From the human T2T-CHM13v2.0 reference genome, Homo sapiens: DNA of 64,000 bases. The notes under the pieces are model-generated. The model searched no databases. It was not told the origin of the DNA and was given only the letters and a program-made list of their open reading frames with translations. Location: NCBI RefSeq assembly GCF_009914755.1, contig NC_060939.1; one strand, 5' to 3'. Within the stretch, counting starts at the first letter, position 1, and every line of letters starts with the position of its first letter. A program made the translations under genes and the position numbers. Shown in pieces: positions 4,105 to 26,344 of this stretch.

Positions 4105-4441
<337 letters not shown>

Positions 4442-6715: not shown

Positions 6716-7090
6716 TCCTCCTCCTCCCCCTCCCCTCCTCCTCTCCTCTCCCCCTCCCCCATCCCCCCTCCTCCCCTCTCCCTCTCATCCTCCTCCTCTC
6801 TCCCCATCCCCCCTCCTCCCCTCTCCCTCTCATCCTCCTCCTCTCTCCCCCTCCCCCTCCTCCCTCTCCTCCCCTCCCCCTCCTCCCCCTCCTCCCCCTC
6901 CTCCTCCTCCCCTCTCCCCCTCCTCCCCTCTCCCCCTCCTCCCCTCTCCCCCTCCTCCCCTCTCCCCCTCCTCCCCCTCCCTCTTCCTCCCTCTTCCTCC
7001 TCCACCCTCCCCTCCCTCCTCCCCCTTCCTCCTCCCTCCCTCCTCCCCCTCCTCCTCCCTCCTCCCTCCTCCTCCTCCTCCTCCTCCTTC
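6716..7090. repeat. ~375-bp CCT/CCCT polypyrimidine tract with an internal 45-bp tandem duplication
   Basis: Almost exclusively C/T; unit ccccatcccccctcctcccctctccctctcatcctcctcctctct occurs twice (marker A at 6761 and 6806). Confidence 0.95.
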
Positions 7091-7710: not shown

Positions 7711-10189
7711 AAAATGAGTGATTATGTTGTTTATGTTGTGACATAACTGGGCATGGAGGAGTTAATGACAGGAGCTAATTACAGTTAATTGCACCTATCT
7801 ACTCAGCAAATATTTTCTGAATAATTCCCGTGTAGACAACAGAGAAATAAGGTATGGAAAGCAGAAAGGGGGATGGAAGAGACCAAATATGAAAATGGAT
7901 TCTAGGGTCACATGGTGAGTTGTACACAGTTGCATAGATGATGTTACATCTATGTAACAGGCGAAAGGGAGTTACTCTTTCGCCTGGGGCATCAAGAAAA
8001 GCTTCAGGTGGAAGGACAATGAGAATTTGCTAGGTAGAAGAAGTGAGGATGAACAGGAAAGGACACAGTGTGTTTTGGGAATAGTAAAAATCAGAGGATG
8101 GGTATTTGGTTCAGGAGTGACAGGAAAGGAGACCAATTGGCTGGGCCAGCTGGAGTGGGGTACACTTTCAATGAGGAGACTAAGGACTGTGGGTTCTACT
8201 ACAGTGTGTTACCTGGAAGATGATACCATCAGACTTAGGTTTTCGTTTTCACACCTTATATGCTGCTGTGTGGCTGGACCAGATGTTAAGGAAGAGGTTG
8301 TAGTAACGCAGTGAAGAAGAAAGGGGGATATATGTTTGAGAGAGAAGGAAAGAGAGAGGGTGGGGCTTGAAGGTCCTGAACATTAGTAGGAAAATATGTG
8401 TATTACTTACAATTTGTGAAGAAGCTGAAAAGATTTAAGAAAAAGATTTGTAGGCTGCCAATAGAATGATCATTATCCTTCAATCAGTTTCCAAAACTTA
8501 TCAGCTACAAAGGGCCTGTGGTCAGCCTTGGCTTCCATGCCTTCCTCCCTGCTGTCCCCAAGAATCCCCAGTGCGGTGAGTAGGACCATCAGAATCTCTG
8601 TTCCCCGCTCTGCCAATGTATGAATCCCCACTCCTTTTTGGTGAAAACTAAGCAAATCCATCACTGAAAGATGTCAGAGCTTCTTGGGCTCCTTGTCATC
8701 TGGAGGTAATGGAGGTCACATGTCAGGTTTTGGGGAAAAGGCAGAGTGCAAAGTTCTGGGAGGGACAGGGTCTGGGGCTACTTCCTGTCACTGGAAGGCG
8801 GGTAGGGCTGAAGAAGAACAATTTCTGGTGAAGGCAAATGGTTTGGAAATGATAATCTGGTCAGTTTATTATTCCAGTGGTATATGGGTCAGAAAGATCA
8901 CAGCTTAAGAGTTTGTAAAAGATGGCTTGGGTGCAGACAAACCCTGCTCATCTGGGAAGGAATTGTGTCCCAGCAAGAGAAAGCCAGCTCACACTTCGTT
9001 GTTCTGAAGCTGATTATTAGCCGTGATTACCTGCACTTTCTATTTTCTTCTGCTACCACCCAACTTTGGACCACTTTTCTGCTTATTAGCACTAGCATCT
9101 GAATATTGGAAAAGAGGAAAAGAGAGATGAAGGAGCTCCATGTAATTTTGCTTCCTGTTAGCAGCTCTATTAAAAGAATACTGAAGGAACCAATAGAATT
9201 AAAGCAGATTGAAACCATTGGGTAAAAAGTTTGATTTTCATCTACCCTGTTTCACATTGCCATTGATAATCATTAAATTTAGTGCAGCAAAGACTTAGGA
9301 GAGCCTTGCTTTATGGGTAGAGAACAGATTTCAAAAGATTTTAATTTTCCCAAATCCATTCAATCAGTGAGAGGCAGAACGAGATCTCAAACCAAAGTCT
9401 TCCAATTCATACTTTACATGGTACTTCTTCCCTCACTATATCATATTTTGTCTCAATAAGATTCATTTTGGCCTTCCTCTTAAATCTATACAGGCAAAAT
9501 AATACATAATGAAATGAAAAGAATATTGGATTTTGATTCAGAACACCTAAGTTTTTCGCTTGCTTTCCCTCTTTTCTTGCCTTATAAGCAAGATAGTGAT
9601 AATTCCTGCCTTGCCTACTTCACAGATTTACTCTCAATACCAAAGGAATAATACAGGTGAAAACGCCTTCTCTGCTGCAAGGTGCTATAAAAATGCCATG
9701 AATGTGTTTACATACAATCCCACACATTTGAACAGAGCTAGTCAGAATTATTTGTTACTATGTCATATATCTACCAGTTGTAATAACATGGCATGAGTTT
9801 AAAGGATTCTTTTTATTTTGCAGTATTGAGAAAATTTTGAGAAATTAGAAATGTATCGGTAATAACTGATATAGCTTTTGAAGAGAAGAAAATACTTTAT
9901 TATTTGCAGGGGTTAGGATTATTTTCCTGGAAACTTTAAGAGAATCAACAGAAAACATTAAAAAAATAAGGAGTATAAGAAAGTTCAATAATCTGGAAAT
10001 TTCGATAAAAGTTTTTTTCCTTGTCTTGGAAAACATGTAGAAAGAACACATACAACAGAAAACAAAAACACACATTTCTATTTCTGAAAATGAGAAGACA
10101 AGTTTCCAGGTACCTAAAGACTGTTAAAAGCTGTCAAGTTCTTGCACAATCTTGGTGGAAGAAACATGGAGAGATGTGGAAAATGGAGA

Positions 10190-15827: not shown

Positions 15828-16759
15828 TATGTAATATCATAAGCACTTGCACTTTTATTGGTAACTGATGACTCTGCAATATACTCTGTTACTTATCACA
15901 GGATATCAGTGAGACACTGACTCTATGGTTGAGAATGTCTGATCTACAGGATGAAGTCCAAATCCCTAAACAAAATATATAAGAAAGGATCTTACCAGTT
16001 TAATATTAGCCTACTTTTTAAAATTTATGTTCCATCATCTCTAGCCCTTTGCTTGAGCCACACATAACTTGTCTTCATTTTTTAATTCATCGACTTTTGC
16101 GCCACTGGTTTTGGCATATGTCCCTTTCTTTGTTCAGAAGACCCTCCTCACCGTCTCCATCTGGTAAATAATACTTATTTTGCAAGCTCCAATGTGAATA
16201 CCATCACATCTTTGGAAATGGCCTTACCTCTCTCAGTCATATCTATTTTGGTGTTTTGTATACACCTCCATTAGCTCACTTGTAATTATTTTCTTTCATA
16301 TTTGTCACTACTGACAAATGCTATGGCCTCTTAGAGAACAAGGACTATAATTTATTCAACTTTTTCTACCCAGTGCTCCTGCAGTTCTTGGAATATGCTC
16401 AAGACACCTGCTTAAGGGAAAATATAGCTGAGTGTTACCTCCAGTGTATAGGTGACCTACAAGGAGCTGAAGTAACCTGTTTTCACCGTAGTCAGTAAAA
16501 ATGCACTGATCTACACCCCTTAAATCTAGACCTCAGTGGATTAATGGCTGTCAGCAGAAATACGGAAGAGACAGATAGTCTTTAGGTTTTATTTTTTTTT
16601 TGGTCTTAGTGATGATAATAACATAATTCAGTAATTTTAAAGTGTTTTCTTTATATCTTCCATTGCCTATTCTTTAGCTCTGTTATCAAAAGATATTCAA
16701 TTTTTTCTTTCTTTGTGCACAATTTGAAACACAGTTTGTATCTTCAAAAAGGCTACGGC

Positions 16760-16912
16760 TTTTTAGATTCTGTATGAGTAAGATCGTATCATGTTTGTCT
16801 TTCCGTGTGTGTCTTATTTCACTTAACACAATGTCCTCCAGACTCATCCATGTTGCTGAAAATGACAGAATTCCATTTTTTTATGGTTGAATAGTATTCT
16901 ATTGTATCTATG
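16760..16912 (-). mobile_element. L1MA-type 3' fragment
   Basis: ttttagattc...tttgtctttc...cttatttcacttaacacaatgtcctccagactcatccatgttgctgaaaatgacagaatt. Confidence 0.75.
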
Positions 16913-17030
16913 TGTGTGTGTATATATAAAATCATATATTCATATATATGTGTATATATATATATATAAAATCATATATTCATATATATGTGTATATATA
17001 TAAAATCATATACGTGTGTGTGTATATATA

Positions 17031-17068
<38 letters not shown>

Positions 17069-17077
17069 CACACACAC
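16910..17077. repeat. Compound (TA)/(TG)/(CA) microsatellite with repeated tatataaaatcatata units
   Basis: Three copies of aaaatcatata separated by TA/TG runs. Confidence 0.9.
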
Positions 17078-17489
17078 GTCAGTAAATGAATCAAAACACA
17101 TTTTCCACCTGAGCCCAGACATGGCTTTAAAATGCATTTCAGCACTATGATACTCCAGCTATCTTCTATAAACAAAGGAGGGAAGACATTCCTATCTTTC
17201 CCTCATCAGCACATTCTCCATAAAGACTGTTCATGTCAATACACTACCTGTAACTGGGCAGAGAGTGTTTTCCTGACTCCCTTTGCAAAGTGAAGCAAGC
17301 ATTGTAACTCCAAGATTGAGCTTCCAGATATTTAACTCTTTTGTCAAATCTCTCTCAAGGACTGGGTTCAGGGTCTTACAGTCATGGAATTCCAAAGATA
17401 CTGCTTCTGTTACTTGCCTTCTATTTCTGCTAAGGAATGAGAGGGACCATCCCACCCACAGACTTTACGAATGAGGAGGGAAAGAGCTA

Positions 17490-17690
17490 ACACATACTGA
17501 ATGGCAGGCAATATAGTGAGTGCTTTATATTTACTTCTTTTTGTTTTTTATAACAACCACATAAAGTCAGTATTATTGTCCCCATTTTATAGATAGGAGA
17601 TAGTGTGAAAGAAATTAATTCATTTGCCTGAGATCCCAGAGGTAGTGAGAGATGAAGATAATCAATCTCAGATTTGTGACATCTAGCATC
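17490..17690 (-). mobile_element. MIR
   Basis: tattattgtccccattttatagatagga...ttgcctgagatccca. Confidence 0.65.
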
Positions 17691-17926
17691 ATGCTATTGA
17701 ACTCTGGAGAATTAGTTATTTCTTTTGTGATCTTGATAAAATCTGCTTCTTGGGTTCTTTTCATACCATCAAATAGTTACATTTTTGATGACAGCCTTGA
17801 GCTGTACCTTCATACTTTCTTGAGTCTTGCAGACCACAGAGGAAGATAGAAAATGGGTAAATGTAGATCAGATATGTGTTAGGAGCAATCCATCTATTTA
17901 AAACCTCATGCCAATCATGTGAAAAT

Positions 17927-18135
17927 CAGTTTGTATCTTCAAAAAGGCTACGGTTTTTTAGATTCTGTATGAGTAAGATCGTATCCCATGAGAAAAAGAG
18001 AATACAAGATAAACTGAAAACATTGAAGGAAACAAAATTCAAAACCTACAATGGAAAATGTATTTTTAATAAAAATTAGTATCAAAGAAGCAAAAAAGAA
18101 GTTTAGAAAACTATAAAATAGAGCAATATTAAAAT
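17927..18135 (+). repeat. Composite templated insertion: copy of 16732-16790 fused to copy of 19218-19372
   Basis: 17927-17985 = 16732-16790 (58/59 identical); 17982-18136 = 19218-19372 (154/155 identical); TATC overlap at the internal junction; AAAAT on both sides (17922-17926, 18131-18135). Confidence 0.95.
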
Positions 18136-18140
18136 TTGGG

Positions 18141-18490
<350 letters not shown>

Positions 18491-18559
18491 TAACAACATA
18501 CTTTCCATACACACTGATGTCAGTCTCATGGTTTCTTTGAATAGAAAGGTATAGAATTG

Positions 18560-18645
18560 ACGCCTAGGCAGGAGGATCACTTGAGACTTGGACCAGTCTG
18601 GGCAACACAGTGAGACCCCACCTCTACAAAACAAATTAATTAAAA
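18560..18645 (+). mobile_element. Short truncated Alu monomer (FLAM/AluJ-like)
   Basis: aggcaggaggatcacttgag...ctgggcaacacagtgagaccccacctctacaaaa; TSD aatagaaaggtatagaat / aataggaagctatagaat. Confidence 0.8.
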
Positions 18646-19217
18646 AATAGGAAGCTATAGAATCACAGGCAATTAATAGCAGAGGAAGAATCTAGTTTAA
18701 CATTTTTCTTTTAAAAAGGAGGAAACTGGTGTCCAGGGTAATCAAATGACTTGTCCAAATCACATGGTGGGTTAATGATAAAGTCAGGGCCCAAACTGTG
18801 ATTTCTTCAGAGTAAGACCAATGCTTTTATTTACTTATTAATATTTACTACAGGGAAATCTTTATTCTCAATTAGCTCTGATAGGACACAGCTATAAGAA
18901 TGGTGTCCCTCTAGCTAAATAAAATGTCAGCTGAAAAACAGAAGTTGAGGTTGTTCTTCTCTTTACCTAGCCCTTACAGAACTCTTCGAAATATATGATG
19001 GGAAAGATGGCTCCTGTGCCTGGTGAGCTCTGTTGAAATGGACCACATTCTCAGAGTTTGTGAGCTGAGGCCCAGACATCAGATGAGGCACCCAAAGTCA
19101 CACAGGTGGTGCATGAGGGTGACAGGATTAACATCCACAAAGAGGTCTTTCAAACTTTGTGGGCAAAGGATAAAGCCGCCCCTTGCCATGGTAATAGATG
19201 AATAGGAATGGACATTC

Positions 19218-19372
19218 TATCCCATGAGAAAAAGAGAATACAAGATAAACTGAAAACATTGAAGGAAAAAAAATTCAAAACCTACAATGGAAAATGTATT
19301 TTTAATAAAAATTAGTATCAAAGAAGCAAAAAAGAAGTTTAGAAAACTATAAAATAGAGCAATATTAAAATT
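19218..19372 (+). repeat. Downstream copy (probable donor) of the 155-bp direct repeat flanking the exon
   Basis: tatcccatgagaaaaagag...gagcaatattaaaatt matches 17982-18136 with one mismatch and continues into A-rich L1-like sequence. Confidence 0.95.
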
Positions 19373-21267
19373 GTTAAATGAAAGAGACAAAATGAGAATT
19401 ATAAAGAAATGCTAAAAGCACAAAAACTTCAAAGAAATAAAATGAAAATGACTTAAAATAAATAAGAATGATGTAAGAAAGATGAAATAATTCAATTTTT
19501 AAGAAACAATTTAAGTGTTAAACAGCCAAGAATAGACTAGTTTCAAAAGATAAGCACCGAAGATAGATAAGTTGAAAAGGTTAAAAGTATGAAGATGATA
19601 AATTACAAAAAGATGAAAAGCATAAATTCCAAATGATGAAATATGTTAAACCAGGTTAAAGGAAAGCAAATAAAAGCTACAGACCATAAAAATAAAATTT
19701 CAGTACACACACACACATACAGAAAGGAAAGACACCCATGTACCCATGTGTTCCTTACAGGTGAGCTCCTCCCAGCTTAGCTGTTGCCAGACTTCATTTT
19801 ATTTACTTTTTTATAGAGATTATTTGAGGGCAGAGAATGTTGGGCAGAGAGCAGGGTTTCTTCTCTTTCTCTGTGGTGACTGATTGGCCTTTAAGCACAT
19901 GGGAAAACTGGGAGGCCAAGTTCTTCACTAAGAAACTCGATCAGACCTTGGAAAGAAATTAGCCTTCTGAGCTCTCAAGCTGGAAAGGCCCCAAAGCAGT
20001 GTTCGCTCCTGGTCAAACAGAACTCAGCCGACTCTTGCTATGTGTTCCTTTAATGGCAGAGAACAGCTCTGGGACATCAGTGAATGGCTCCTCCCTGCTT
20101 GAGCAGCCAAAGATTTTACTAGCAAACTTTCTCAGCCTAAATGGATGGAAAACAGTTATGCAAGGCATCTTGAGGGACATGATCCCATTTTGACATTTTC
20201 TCATCCAAGTTGGCTCTTTTCTGAAATCTCTCCTTCGCTGGAATTGTCTGAGGTCCAGTAGAGAATGGAAAGAGCCCTGGATCTAGAGTCATATGATTCG
20301 TTGGGAATTCTGGCTTTTCTCCTGCCCTAGTCAGTTTTCTCTTCTGTTGGAAGAGGAAGACAACATGCTCCCTGTTGACCATTCTGGAAAAGGTCTCAGA
20401 AACCCAAGGCAATATTCAAGCTCAGGGATTAAGTACTGTAGTTTCTTCAATTTTAAATGCTTACACCACCAAACCAGGGGATTTATCCAGATCTTTGGTT
20501 TAAAGGTTAATGTGATCTCAGTCACTGAGTATCCTCCTGGCCTGGACACACATTATTTCCAGCTCACAGCTGGTTGCTTTGGATTCCCAAATGGCAGGCC
20601 AGCTTCTCCTTAGTGACACTGGCATTTATCATCATTACCATTATTTATTATGATATGACTAAAATTACCTTTTCATTTATATAGCATCTTTCATCATGGA
20701 GCTCAAGGCACTTTGTAGATCACTTGGATTACCCAAACAATTTTGGCTGAAAGGGACTTGGAAATCATAGTGTTATTCTACTGAAGGAAAAATCTACAGG
20801 TCGTAGCACATCATTATGAAAAAACTTGAGACTGCCTGAATGGATAATGCCTCATCATAAAAGAGCTTAAAAGTCTCAGTGCCTGACCCTTCCTTAGAAC
20901 ATACGTAACACATGGTTTATCTAATTTCTGCTTGAACTAGTTCTGTAATTGACATTTTATTTCAGGGCATGCCCACTCTGTTGTGTATCATCAGGTGGAT
21001 TTGTGTTTTACTGTGTTTTGATCTTTGTCCTGTGAGCTTCACCCATTTTAATCATTCCTCCCTTAGGATATCCCATGGATAAAATCTAATCCCCCTCATC
21101 CGTGCCTGAATTTTCCCATGTGAAGTTCTCTCCAACCTTGATGCAGTTCACCTAAATCTTGTGTATATGGTATTTTTTTCGATGTTCTCATCTTCACTGG
21201 TTTTCTCTGGGTATATTCTTATTAATAGGCTCCTTTTTGTGACGCTGTGGTCTTTTGTCCTTTGTAA

Positions 21268-26034: not shown

Positions 26035-26344
26035 GGCCGGGCGCGGTGGCTCATGCCTGTAATCCCAGCACTTTGGGAGGCCGAGGCAGGCAGATCACGA
26101 GGTCAGGAGATTGAGACCATCCTGGCTAACACAGTGAAACCCCGTCTCTATTAAAAAATACCAAAAAAAAATTAGCCAGCTGTGGTGGTGGGTACCTGTA
26201 GTCCCAGCTACTTGGGAGGGTGAGACAGGAGAATGGCATGAACCTGGGAGGCGGAGCTTGCAAGTGAGCCAAGATCACACCAGCCTGGGCAACAGAGCGA
26301 GACTCTATCTCAAAAAAACAAAAAAGCAAAAAAACAACAACAAA
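26035..26344 (+). mobile_element. AluY
   Basis: gatcacgaggtcaggaga..gagaccatcctggctaaca; perfect 19-bp TSD aaagaaagtgcctatgcct (26016-26034, 26345-26363). Confidence 0.96.

What the first reader, a model, noticed from the sequence alone, without database searches (positions are those of the whole stretch)
17927..18135. Two-donor templated insertion ending just upstream of the AGBL1 catalytic exon
Seen: 17927-17985 copies 16732-16790 (58/59), and 17982-18136 copies 19218-19372 (154/155). The two pieces overlap by TATC, entry is at imperfect homology (tgaaaAT|cag vs tgaaaCA|cag), and AAAAT brackets the insert. The locus reads A-X-[A-B]-exon-B. At 16790 the L1 fragment continues in register, but in the copy it stops at TATC, so the exon-proximal copy looks derived. 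Known: serial microhomology template switches are the signature of FoSTeS/MMBIR or polymerase-theta templated insertion. Inference: this was a recent three-jump event using donors ~1.2 kb on either side of the break. It stopped ~10 nt short of the putative branch point (A18145), which may be why it was tolerated.
Basis: partly seen in the sequence, partly recalled or inferred. Interest (0 to 1): 0.8.

Follow-up and report, generated by a model that had tools for sequence, protein, structure and literature searches.

The report
Two-donor templated insertion in AGBL1 intron
A 209-base patch just upstream of a coding exon of the human AGBL1 gene was stitched together from copies of two nearby intron stretches, a neat but ordinary example of a known kind of DNA copying error.

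Summary
Window 17927-17985 copies 16732-16790 (58/59). Window 17982-18136 copies 19218-19372 (154/155). The two pieces overlap by TATC. These are the only long near-identical pairs in the 64-kb window. The composite has no other match in the T2T-CHM13 genome.

The left outer copy is original. Other copies of the same interspersed repeat (L1) align straight across 16790, where the composite switches to piece B. The right outer copy belongs by base composition to a longer A-rich block.

The A-to-B junction has 4 nt of microhomology and the exit has 6 nt. The entry has none, only TGAAA followed by two mismatches.

Best reading: one local, DNA-templated, three-switch insertion of the FoSTeS/MMBIR or serial-slippage kind. 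It leaves the last 34 intron bases intact before an exon that encodes the HPGE zinc-site segment of the M14 carboxypeptidase domain.

Multi-template germline insertions are already well documented (PMC8421209, PMC7615360). This is a new member of a known kind.

No outgroup or other human haplotype could be examined. Age, fixation and any splicing effect are therefore untested.

The parts
16732..16790 (+). Donor A, the original copy. It lies inside an old L1 remnant in minus orientation, at the ORF2 C-terminal end.
   Evidence: 58/59 to 17927-17985. Other repeat copies align across its right edge. Weak ORF2p C-terminus match across 16790.
16722..16731 (+). Left flank of donor A, ATTTGAAACA. It is homeologous to the target's left flank (7/10; TGAAA then 2 mismatches).
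   Evidence: (family D3 extends to 69 nt at 94%).
16758..16905 (-). Interspersed-repeat (L1) remnant that contains donor A and continues beyond 16790. It is cut off by the microsatellite at about 16905.
   Evidence: 3960 first-look candidates, 40 scored, 79-88% identity..
16895..17085 (.). Compound (TG)n/(TA)n microsatellite with a perfect 40-nt tandem duplication and palindromic arms. It lies between donor A and the insertion point and is a possible fork-stalling site (inference).
   Evidence: TRF: 16921-17002, period 40, 100%. (I13, 20-nt perfect inverted repeat). (ssDNA fold z=-3.29, 0 of 200 shuffles as stable).
17917..17926 (+). Target left flank, ATGTGAAAAT. Its last five bases, AAAAT, recur at the end of the insert.
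17927..17985 (+). Copy A' (first templated tract).
17982..17985 (+). TATC, a 4-nt microhomology shared by the end of A (16787-16790) and the start of B (19218-19221). This is the A-to-B switch point.
   Evidence: In one search the microhomology at this junction is 4 and P(>=4)=0.023.
17986..18135 (+). Copy B' (second templated tract). It ends in AAAAT, and the match to the donor extends one base further, to 18136.
18131..18136 (+). AAAATT, the exit microhomology. It is shared by donor B (19367-19372) and the target site.
   Evidence: Read. P(>=6 nt)=0.0024.
18137..18170 (+). Retained 34 nt of intron: T-rich tract, two branch-point-like words (TTAAT with A18145; CTTAT with A18153) and the CAG acceptor.
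   Evidence: sequence reading only. No AG lies between 18124 and the acceptor.
18171..18351 (+). AGBL1 coding exon encoding the HPGE zinc-site segment of the M14 carboxypeptidase domain.
   Evidence: Hub annotation. (Peptidase_M14, E 9.1e-7, 29.2 bits against a cut-off of 21.6, profile 47-103 of 286). (translation). (CCP5 residues 247-300, E 3.4e-13).
19218..19372 (+). Donor B, the original copy, at the left end of an A-rich block.
   Evidence: 154/155 to 17982-18136. Composition continuity with 19373-19700.
19222..19700 (+). A-rich block (54-55% A, 9% C) of unknown repeat family that contains donor B.
   Evidence: No other copy in the assembly at DNA level. No Pfam family in three read-through frames. 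The hub's mask covers 19222-19512.

Best explanation
The 209 bp at 17927-18135 are a single templated insertion, made when a growing DNA strand left its proper template three times.

Proposed path:
1. At the target word GTGAAAAT|TTGGG the 3' end disengaged.
2. It copied 55-59 nt from an L1 remnant about 1.2 kb upstream (16732-16790).
3. It switched through the shared TATC to a point about 1.2 kb downstream (19218) and copied 151-155 nt of an A-rich block.
4. It re-annealed to the original site through AAAATT.
The same path can be read in the opposite direction on the other strand. In that case the two microhomology-primed steps come first and the flush junction at 17926|17927 is the final join.

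Both donors stayed intact, so this was copying, not cut and paste. All pieces are in direct orientation and lie within 2.7 kb.

This is the signature of serial microhomology-mediated template switching: FoSTeS/MMBIR, serial replication slippage, or synthesis-dependent break repair with out-of-register invasions of the sister chromatid or homologue. The tract lengths and donor distances fit those better than classical polymerase-theta fill-ins.

Shown: the copies, their uniqueness, the junction anatomy, and the polarity of A. Inferred: the polarity of B, a single event, and the pathway. The insert left the last 34 intron bases and the exon untouched and is probably neutral.
For: Copies and junctions. 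Chance excluded: 103-nt exact repeat against at most 17 in 200 shuffles; the only 2 qualifying pairs in 64 kb.

No other source in the assembly: 3 of 3 matches are local; B has only itself and B'.

Polarity of A: 33 of 39 non-self repeat copies cross 16790; 2 window copies cross it; 9 of 11 fetched loci align from 16760 or 16773 to 16905; ORF2p C-terminus alignment crosses it; E 0.8.

Polarity of B: (composition) and the hub's mask.

Microhomology: 4 nt (P=0.023) and 6 nt (P=0.0024) against random junction pairs from the same region.

Literature, passages read:
- PMC8421209 reports about 100 germline templated insertions of >=25 bp per person. Of these, 33 of 103 and 26 of 99 are 'complex' multi-template events with up to five templates. 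Priming occurs even with mismatched 3' bases.
- PMC7615360 reports complex germline structural variants with template switching and microhomology, enriched below about 2 kb.
Against: - The entry junction has no perfect microhomology. The TGAAA match is followed by two mismatches, so either a mismatched primer was extended or the last join was flush.
- Polarity of B rests on composition and parsimony only. B has no relatives in the genome that could show register.
- The B copy starts exactly where the A-rich block and the mask start (19218/19222). This coincidence is unexplained.
- No outgroup, second haplotype or read-level data were available. A single event, a pure insertion (rather than insertion with replacement of target bases) and the reality of the assembly are all unverified.
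- The MMB-TI class as operationally defined in PMC8421209 is inverted and within 100 bp. This case is direct and 1.2 kb away.
Confidence: 0.75

Rival explanations
1. Two separate events. One templated or duplicative insertion brought A' (or B') to the site. A later one added the other piece next to it.
For: Nothing in one haplotype can prove simultaneity. The two tracts differ slightly in identity to their donors, 98.3% against 99.4%, but that is one mismatch each.
Against: The pieces abut exactly, with a 4-nt shared word and no filler. Two independent hits at one nucleotide position, each from a donor about 1.2 kb away, are far less likely than one multi-switch event. The window holds no other such copy.
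Confidence: 0.07
2. RNA-templated insertion. Nascent AGBL1 pre-mRNA, which carries A and B in sense and in this order, was reverse-transcribed into a break or nick. The enzyme could be L1 ORF2p (TPRT-like, primed on the A-run at the end of B) or a polymerase with reverse-transcriptase activity, with one template jump from B to A.
For: - Both tracts are in the sense orientation of AGBL1 and in transcript order (hub annotation).
- The insert is bracketed by AAAAT, formally a duplication of >=5 bp as required for class 1 TSIPs (PMC5110952, passages read).
- The bottom strand at the site reads TTTT followed by C, close to the L1 nicking word.
Against: - There is no non-templated poly(A). The terminal AAAAT is itself templated by donor B.
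- The nick word is TTTT/C, not TTTT/A.
- The only AATAAA (18068-18073) lies 62 nt from the end, not 10-20 nt.
- No GT-AG or AT-AC signals sit at the A|B join in any register of TATC, so the join is not a splice.
- The AAAATT word is fully explained as annealing microhomology.
Confidence: 0.06
3. Reverse polarity. The A'-B' composite is the old sequence and the outer stretches were copied from it.
For: Only that B has no relatives to fix its register.
Against: The outer A is continuous with its repeat across 16790, which a 59-nt import could not produce. The outer B matches the composition of the 330 nt that follow it. Two separate exports would be needed.
Confidence: 0.02
4. Assembly artefact in T2T-CHM13 at this spot.
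For: None found. Reads could not be inspected.
Against: The composite differs from each donor by one base. It has clean junctions and lies in otherwise unique sequence. A mis-join would not create a 209-bp mosaic flanked on both sides by correct unique sequence.
Confidence: 0.02

Closest known systems
FoSTeS/MMBIR complex rearrangements and serial replication slippage (names, definitions and the primary papers are recalled, not read here)
   Same: Several consecutive template switches within one product. Short microhomology at the switch points (4 and 6 nt). Donors nearby and left intact. A homeologous or flush junction is tolerated.
   Different: The scale is small: a 209-bp insert with tracts of about 57 and 153 nt. 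There is no copy-number change beyond the patch, and all pieces are direct. The initiating lesion is unknown.
Germline MMBIR-linked templated insertions (MMB-TI), complex class; PMC8421209 (passages read)
   Same: Germline multi-template insertions mediated by microhomology or microhomeology. They are common in normal human genomes: 33 of 103 and 26 of 99 events of >=25 bp were complex, with up to five templates.
   Different: That class was searched for as inverted copies of templates within 100 bp. Here both copies are direct and the templates lie 1195 and 1236 bp away on opposite sides.
Complex structural variants from meiotic break repair with template switching and TMEJ signatures; PMC7615360 (passages read)
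   Same: Germline origin. Inserted sequence homologous to more than one nearby locus. Microhomology at junctions. A size range within the roughly 2 kb of resection.
   Different: No PRDM9-type 13-mer lies within 9 kb of the insertion point (the nearest is at 8703-8715). A link to a hotspot is therefore unsupported.
Templated sequence insertion polymorphisms (TSIPs), classes 1 and 2; PMC5110952 (abstract and passages read)
   Same: A patch of templated sequence inserted while the donors remain intact. A 5-bp flanking duplication resembles the class 1 criterion.
   Different: TSIP donors are distant and RNA-derived. Class 1 needs a poly(A) tail, a TTTT/A site and a polyadenylation signal, all absent here. 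These donors are local and flank the site.

Membership tests
Serial microhomology-mediated template switching (FoSTeS/MMBIR/serial slippage) | Inserted tracts have identifiable templates nearby, and the templates remain intact | tested here: met
   donors at 16732-16790 and 19218-19372 are both present, and there is no other source in the assembly.
Serial microhomology-mediated template switching (FoSTeS/MMBIR/serial slippage) | Two or more switches joined in one uninterrupted product | tested here: met
   target to A, A to B, B to target, with no filler bases.
Serial microhomology-mediated template switching (FoSTeS/MMBIR/serial slippage) | Microhomology at the switch points | tested here: inconclusive
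   Two of three junctions have it: TATC (4 nt, P=0.023) and AAAATT (6 nt, P=0.0024). The entry junction has 0 nt of perfect microhomology, only TGAAA followed by 2 mismatches.
Serial microhomology-mediated template switching (FoSTeS/MMBIR/serial slippage) | Replicative origin (stalled fork or one-ended break) | not testable with these tools
   Only circumstantial: a hairpin-prone microsatellite lies about 850 bp upstream.
MMB-TI as defined operationally by MMBSearch (PMC8421209) | The insert is an inverted copy of a template within 100 bp | tested here: not met
   Both tracts are direct, and the templates are 1195 and 1236 bp away.
Polymerase-theta end-joining templated insertion | Short fill-ins copied from sequence close to the break ends (typical sizes are recalled, not read here) | tested here: inconclusive
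   The tracts of 55-59 and 151-155 nt from 1.2 kb away are long and distant for this class. The microhomology lengths would fit.
L1 ORF2p-mediated insertion (class 1 TSIP; PMC5110952) | Target-site duplication of at least 5 bp | tested here: inconclusive
   AAAAT brackets the insert, but the right-hand copy is also templated by donor B.
L1 ORF2p-mediated insertion (class 1 TSIP; PMC5110952) | Non-templated poly(A) of 10-40 nt, with AATAAA 10-20 nt upstream | tested here: not met
   There is no poly(A). AATAAA at 18068-18073 lies 62 nt from the end.
L1 ORF2p-mediated insertion (class 1 TSIP; PMC5110952) | Insertion at 5'-TTTT/A-3' | tested here: not met
   The bottom strand at the site reads TTTT followed by C.
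NAHR or tandem segmental duplication | Long homology at the breakpoints, with the duplicated unit contiguous to its source | tested here: not met
   The intervening stretches 17082-17926 and 18137-19217 have no similarity to each other. The junction words are 0-6 nt long.

The most novel reading that the evidence does not exclude
The patch was written from RNA, not DNA. Nascent AGBL1 pre-mRNA at its own locus served in cis as the template for break repair. Priming was on the A-run at the end of B, with one template jump to A. This would make it a fossil of transcript-templated repair in the human germline. A second, independent bold reading is that the insert is specific to the human lineage or still polymorphic, and that it changes the use of the zinc-site exon of AGBL1.
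Probability: 0.05. Interest if true: 0.7.

Novelty: new member of a known kind. Interest (0 to 1): 0.28.

Why it matters
This is a clean single-haplotype example of a multi-template insertion. Both donors, all three junctions and the polarity can be read directly, so it is useful as a teaching case or as a benchmark for callers of complex indels.

It ends 35 nt before an exon that encodes part of the zinc site of a carboxypeptidase. From recall, not checked here, that gene is linked to corneal endothelial dystrophy. If the insert proved polymorphic or human-specific it would deserve a splicing test. As a mechanism it adds nothing new.

Tried and rejected
- **Naming the A-rich block B.** Three plus-strand frames of 19222-19760 were read through stops as X. 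Pfam found 0 families in 3 of 3 frames. The first attempts failed on stop codons. DNA searches of the assembly found only B and B'. A blastn with word size 9 against the window found no other copy.
- **Naming the repeat that holds A.** Pfam found nothing for the translated 16734-16853 minus strand, and nothing relevant for 5 open frames from 4 fetched loci. Six proteins were scanned; the only hit was a chance one at E 0.14. The PDB gave only weak LINE-1 ORF2p C-terminus hits at E 0.8. It gave nothing for 16847-16906.
- **Polarising the A mismatch at 16759.** The scored alignments to the L1 homologues start at 16760. The ungapped flanks disagree (T, A, G and C are all seen). The result is inconclusive.
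- **Looking for stray human or primate copies of the locus.** An exact 50-nt exon pattern gave 0 hits in genome contigs.
- **Meiotic hotspot idea.** The 13-mer CCNCCNTNNCCNC occurs 6 times in the window but not within 9 kb of the site.
- **Microhomology script lines.** In one search the lines 'MH entry 27' and 'MH exit 103' compare the derived allele with its own donors, so they are not microhomologies. The values 0 and 6 were read.
- **Literature on AGBL1 variants.** I saw only the listing of 12 of 7,806 papers, and none looked relevant.

Full report
**What is there.**
- The repeat finder on 16000-20000 returns two non-microsatellite families of note: 17982-18136 vs 19218-19372 (155 nt, 99%) and 16722-16790 vs 17917-17985 (69 nt, 94%).
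- Compared base by base, 16732-16790 vs 17927-17985 is 58/59 (16759 C vs 17954 T).
- 17982-18136 vs 19218-19372 is 154/155 (18032 C vs 19268 A).
- The two copied tracts overlap by TATC (17982-17985). This word ends donor A (16787-16790) and begins donor B (19218-19221).
- The insert is 209 bp (17927-18135), bracketed by AAAAT at 17922-17926 and 18131-18135.

**Not chance, and not a dispersed repeat.**
- With the microsatellite removed, the longest exact direct repeat in the 4-kb region is 103 nt. The maximum in 200 dinucleotide-preserving shuffles is 17, with a mean of 11.7.
- A self-megablast of all 64 kb, with the dust filter on, gives only these two non-self pairs at >=93% identity and >=40 bp.
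- The window's assembly could be searched. The stretch 17900-17170 region query (17900-18170) finds three places: itself and the two local donors (3 of 3 candidates scored).
- That tool skips very common words and scores only the best candidates, so weak copies could be missed. A near-identical third copy should not be.

**Which copies are original.**
- The stretch around donor A is a high-copy interspersed repeat. There were 3960 first-look candidates and 40 were scored.
- Of the 39 non-self rows, 33 align from window 16758-16777 through about 16905, straight across 16790, at 79-85% identity.
- The other 6 rows begin at 16790-16795.
- Two further copies inside the window align over 16773-16905.
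- Of the 11 fetched loci, 9 align from 16760 or 16773 and 2 from 16791.
- Translated on the minus strand, 16773-16853 gives as its only PDB hits the last residues of LINE-1 ORF2p (1246-1272 of 1275). That alignment crosses 16790, but at E 0.8 it is weak on its own.
- The outer A is therefore in register with its element, whereas the composite leaves that register at TATC and continues with B. The composite is derived.
- For B there are no relatives anywhere in the assembly and no Pfam family.
- The argument for B is compositional. B is 55% A and 9% C. The following 328 bases (19373-19700) are 54% A and 9% C. The sequences around the composite are 31-32% A and 20% C.
- The hub's mask 19222-19512 also runs through the exit point.

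**Junctions.**
- A to B: 4 nt (TATC).
- Exit: donor B ends with AAAATT before diverging, and the target carries the same AAAATT. That is 6 nt of microhomology, and it also explains the 'bracketing' AAAAT without any staggered cut.
- Entry: no perfect microhomology. The flanks share TGAAA and then differ by two bases (AT vs CA).
- Among random junction pairs drawn from the same region, microhomology of >=4 nt occurs in 2.3% and of >=6 nt in 0.24%.
- Read right to left on the bottom strand, the path is two well-primed switches (AAAATT, then TATC) and a final flush or homeologous join.
- Read left to right, it begins with extension from a primer mismatched at its last two bases. PMC8421209 (passages read) reports that this happens in such events.

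**Mechanism.**
- All three pieces are direct, both donors are intact, and everything lies within 2.7 kb.
- I therefore favour one DNA-templated multi-switch event. It could have arisen at a stalled or collapsed fork (FoSTeS/MMBIR, serial replication slippage). It could also have arisen during synthesis-dependent repair of a break with out-of-register invasions of the sister chromatid or homologue.
- After long resection, the other end of the same broken molecule would offer the wrong order of pieces (B' before A'). That is my inference from strand geometry.
- Tracts of about 57 and 153 nt from donors 1.2 kb away are longer and more distant than the short fill-ins I recall for polymerase theta. 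I cannot exclude that pathway.
- A hairpin-prone (TG)n/(TA)n block lies between donor A and the site. It has a perfect 40-nt tandem duplication and a 20-nt perfect inverted repeat, and its single-strand fold has z=-3.29. This is circumstantial support for fork trouble, no more.
- No PRDM9-type 13-mer lies within 9 kb.

**Rivals.**
- Two successive events cannot be excluded from one haplotype, but they require two hits at one nucleotide.
- An RNA template (nascent AGBL1 pre-mRNA, in sense and in order) is conceivable. Measured against the class 1 TSIP criteria quoted in PMC5110952:
  - the 5-bp duplication is formally present;
  - the poly(A) tail is absent;
  - the TTTT/A word is not met, because the site reads TTTT then C;
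  - the nearby polyadenylation signal is absent, since AATAAA lies 62 nt away.
- The A|B join has no splice signals in any register.
- Reverse polarity and assembly artefact are unlikely for the reasons given above.

**Age.**
- There are two differences in 210 non-redundant copied positions, 0.95%.
- The exact Poisson 95% range for two events is 0.24-7.2, which gives 0.1-3.4% divergence.
- With recalled human mutation rates of 0.5-1 x 10^-9 per site per year, that is roughly 5-10 million years. The range runs from under 1 to about 30 million years.
- The event is younger still if either difference was a copying error. Both differences sit at homopolymer edges.
- L1 homologues could not polarise the A difference.
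- 'Recent' is true relative to the host repeat (79-88% identical to its relatives). It is otherwise open.

**The exon.**
- The translation of 18173-18349 contains RVHPGES.
- It matches Peptidase_M14 at E 9.1e-7 and 29.2 bits, above the 21.6-bit cut-off.
- It matches human CCP5 residues 247-300 at E 3.4e-13, with RVHPGE conserved.
- That HPGE holds two zinc ligands is recalled, not tested.
- The insert ends 35 nt before the exon. The retained 34 nt hold the T-rich tract, the acceptor and two branch-point-like words (A18145 and A18153), with no upstream AG after 18123.
- That this is why the insert was tolerated is a reasonable guess and was not tested.

**Comparison and verdict.**
- Multi-template germline insertions are common. 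PMC8421209 counts about 100 events of >=25 bp per person, of which 33 of 103 and 26 of 99 are complex, with up to five templates. Its search definition, inverted copies within 100 bp, differs from this direct, 1.2-kb case.
- PMC7615360 describes complex germline variants with template switching and microhomology below about 2 kb.
- This locus is thus a well-resolved new member of a known kind.
- The decisive tests could not be run here because no such sequences were available. They are outgroup and pangenome alleles, read support, repeat-library annotation and a splicing assay.
- Supplements of the cited papers were not opened.

Noticed in passing
window 16895-17085: Compound (TG)n/(TA)n microsatellite that truncates the L1 remnant. 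It contains a perfect 40-nt tandem duplication (16921-17002) and a perfect 20-nt inverted repeat (17012-17031 / 17060-17079). The single-strand DNA fold has z=-3.29.
   Followed up: partly
window 6756-7014: Three matches to the 13-mer CCNCCNTNNCCNC cluster within 260 bp of a masked C-rich repeat. The window holds 6 matches against 0.86 expected, and 0 of 100 shuffles reach 6.
   Followed up: no
window 19222-19760: A-rich block (54-55% A, 9% C) with a 24-nt tandem unit at 19583-19641. It is masked in NCBI's file, yet it has no other copy in the assembly at DNA level and no Pfam family. Its repeat family is unknown.
   Followed up: partly
window 19218-19222: The template switch into donor B lands exactly at the left edge of the masked A-rich block. 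This coincidence of a switch point with an element edge is unexplained.
   Followed up: no
window 18559-18656: A short fragment in the downstream intron is similar to 4354-4409 and 26077-26322 (69-82% identity). It looks like an Alu-type SINE piece, but that name is from recall only.
   Followed up: no
window 16732-16806: The hub's mask for the L1 remnant starts only at 16807, although repeat copies align from about 16758. The mask boundaries therefore understate repeat extent and should not be read as element edges.
   Followed up: partly
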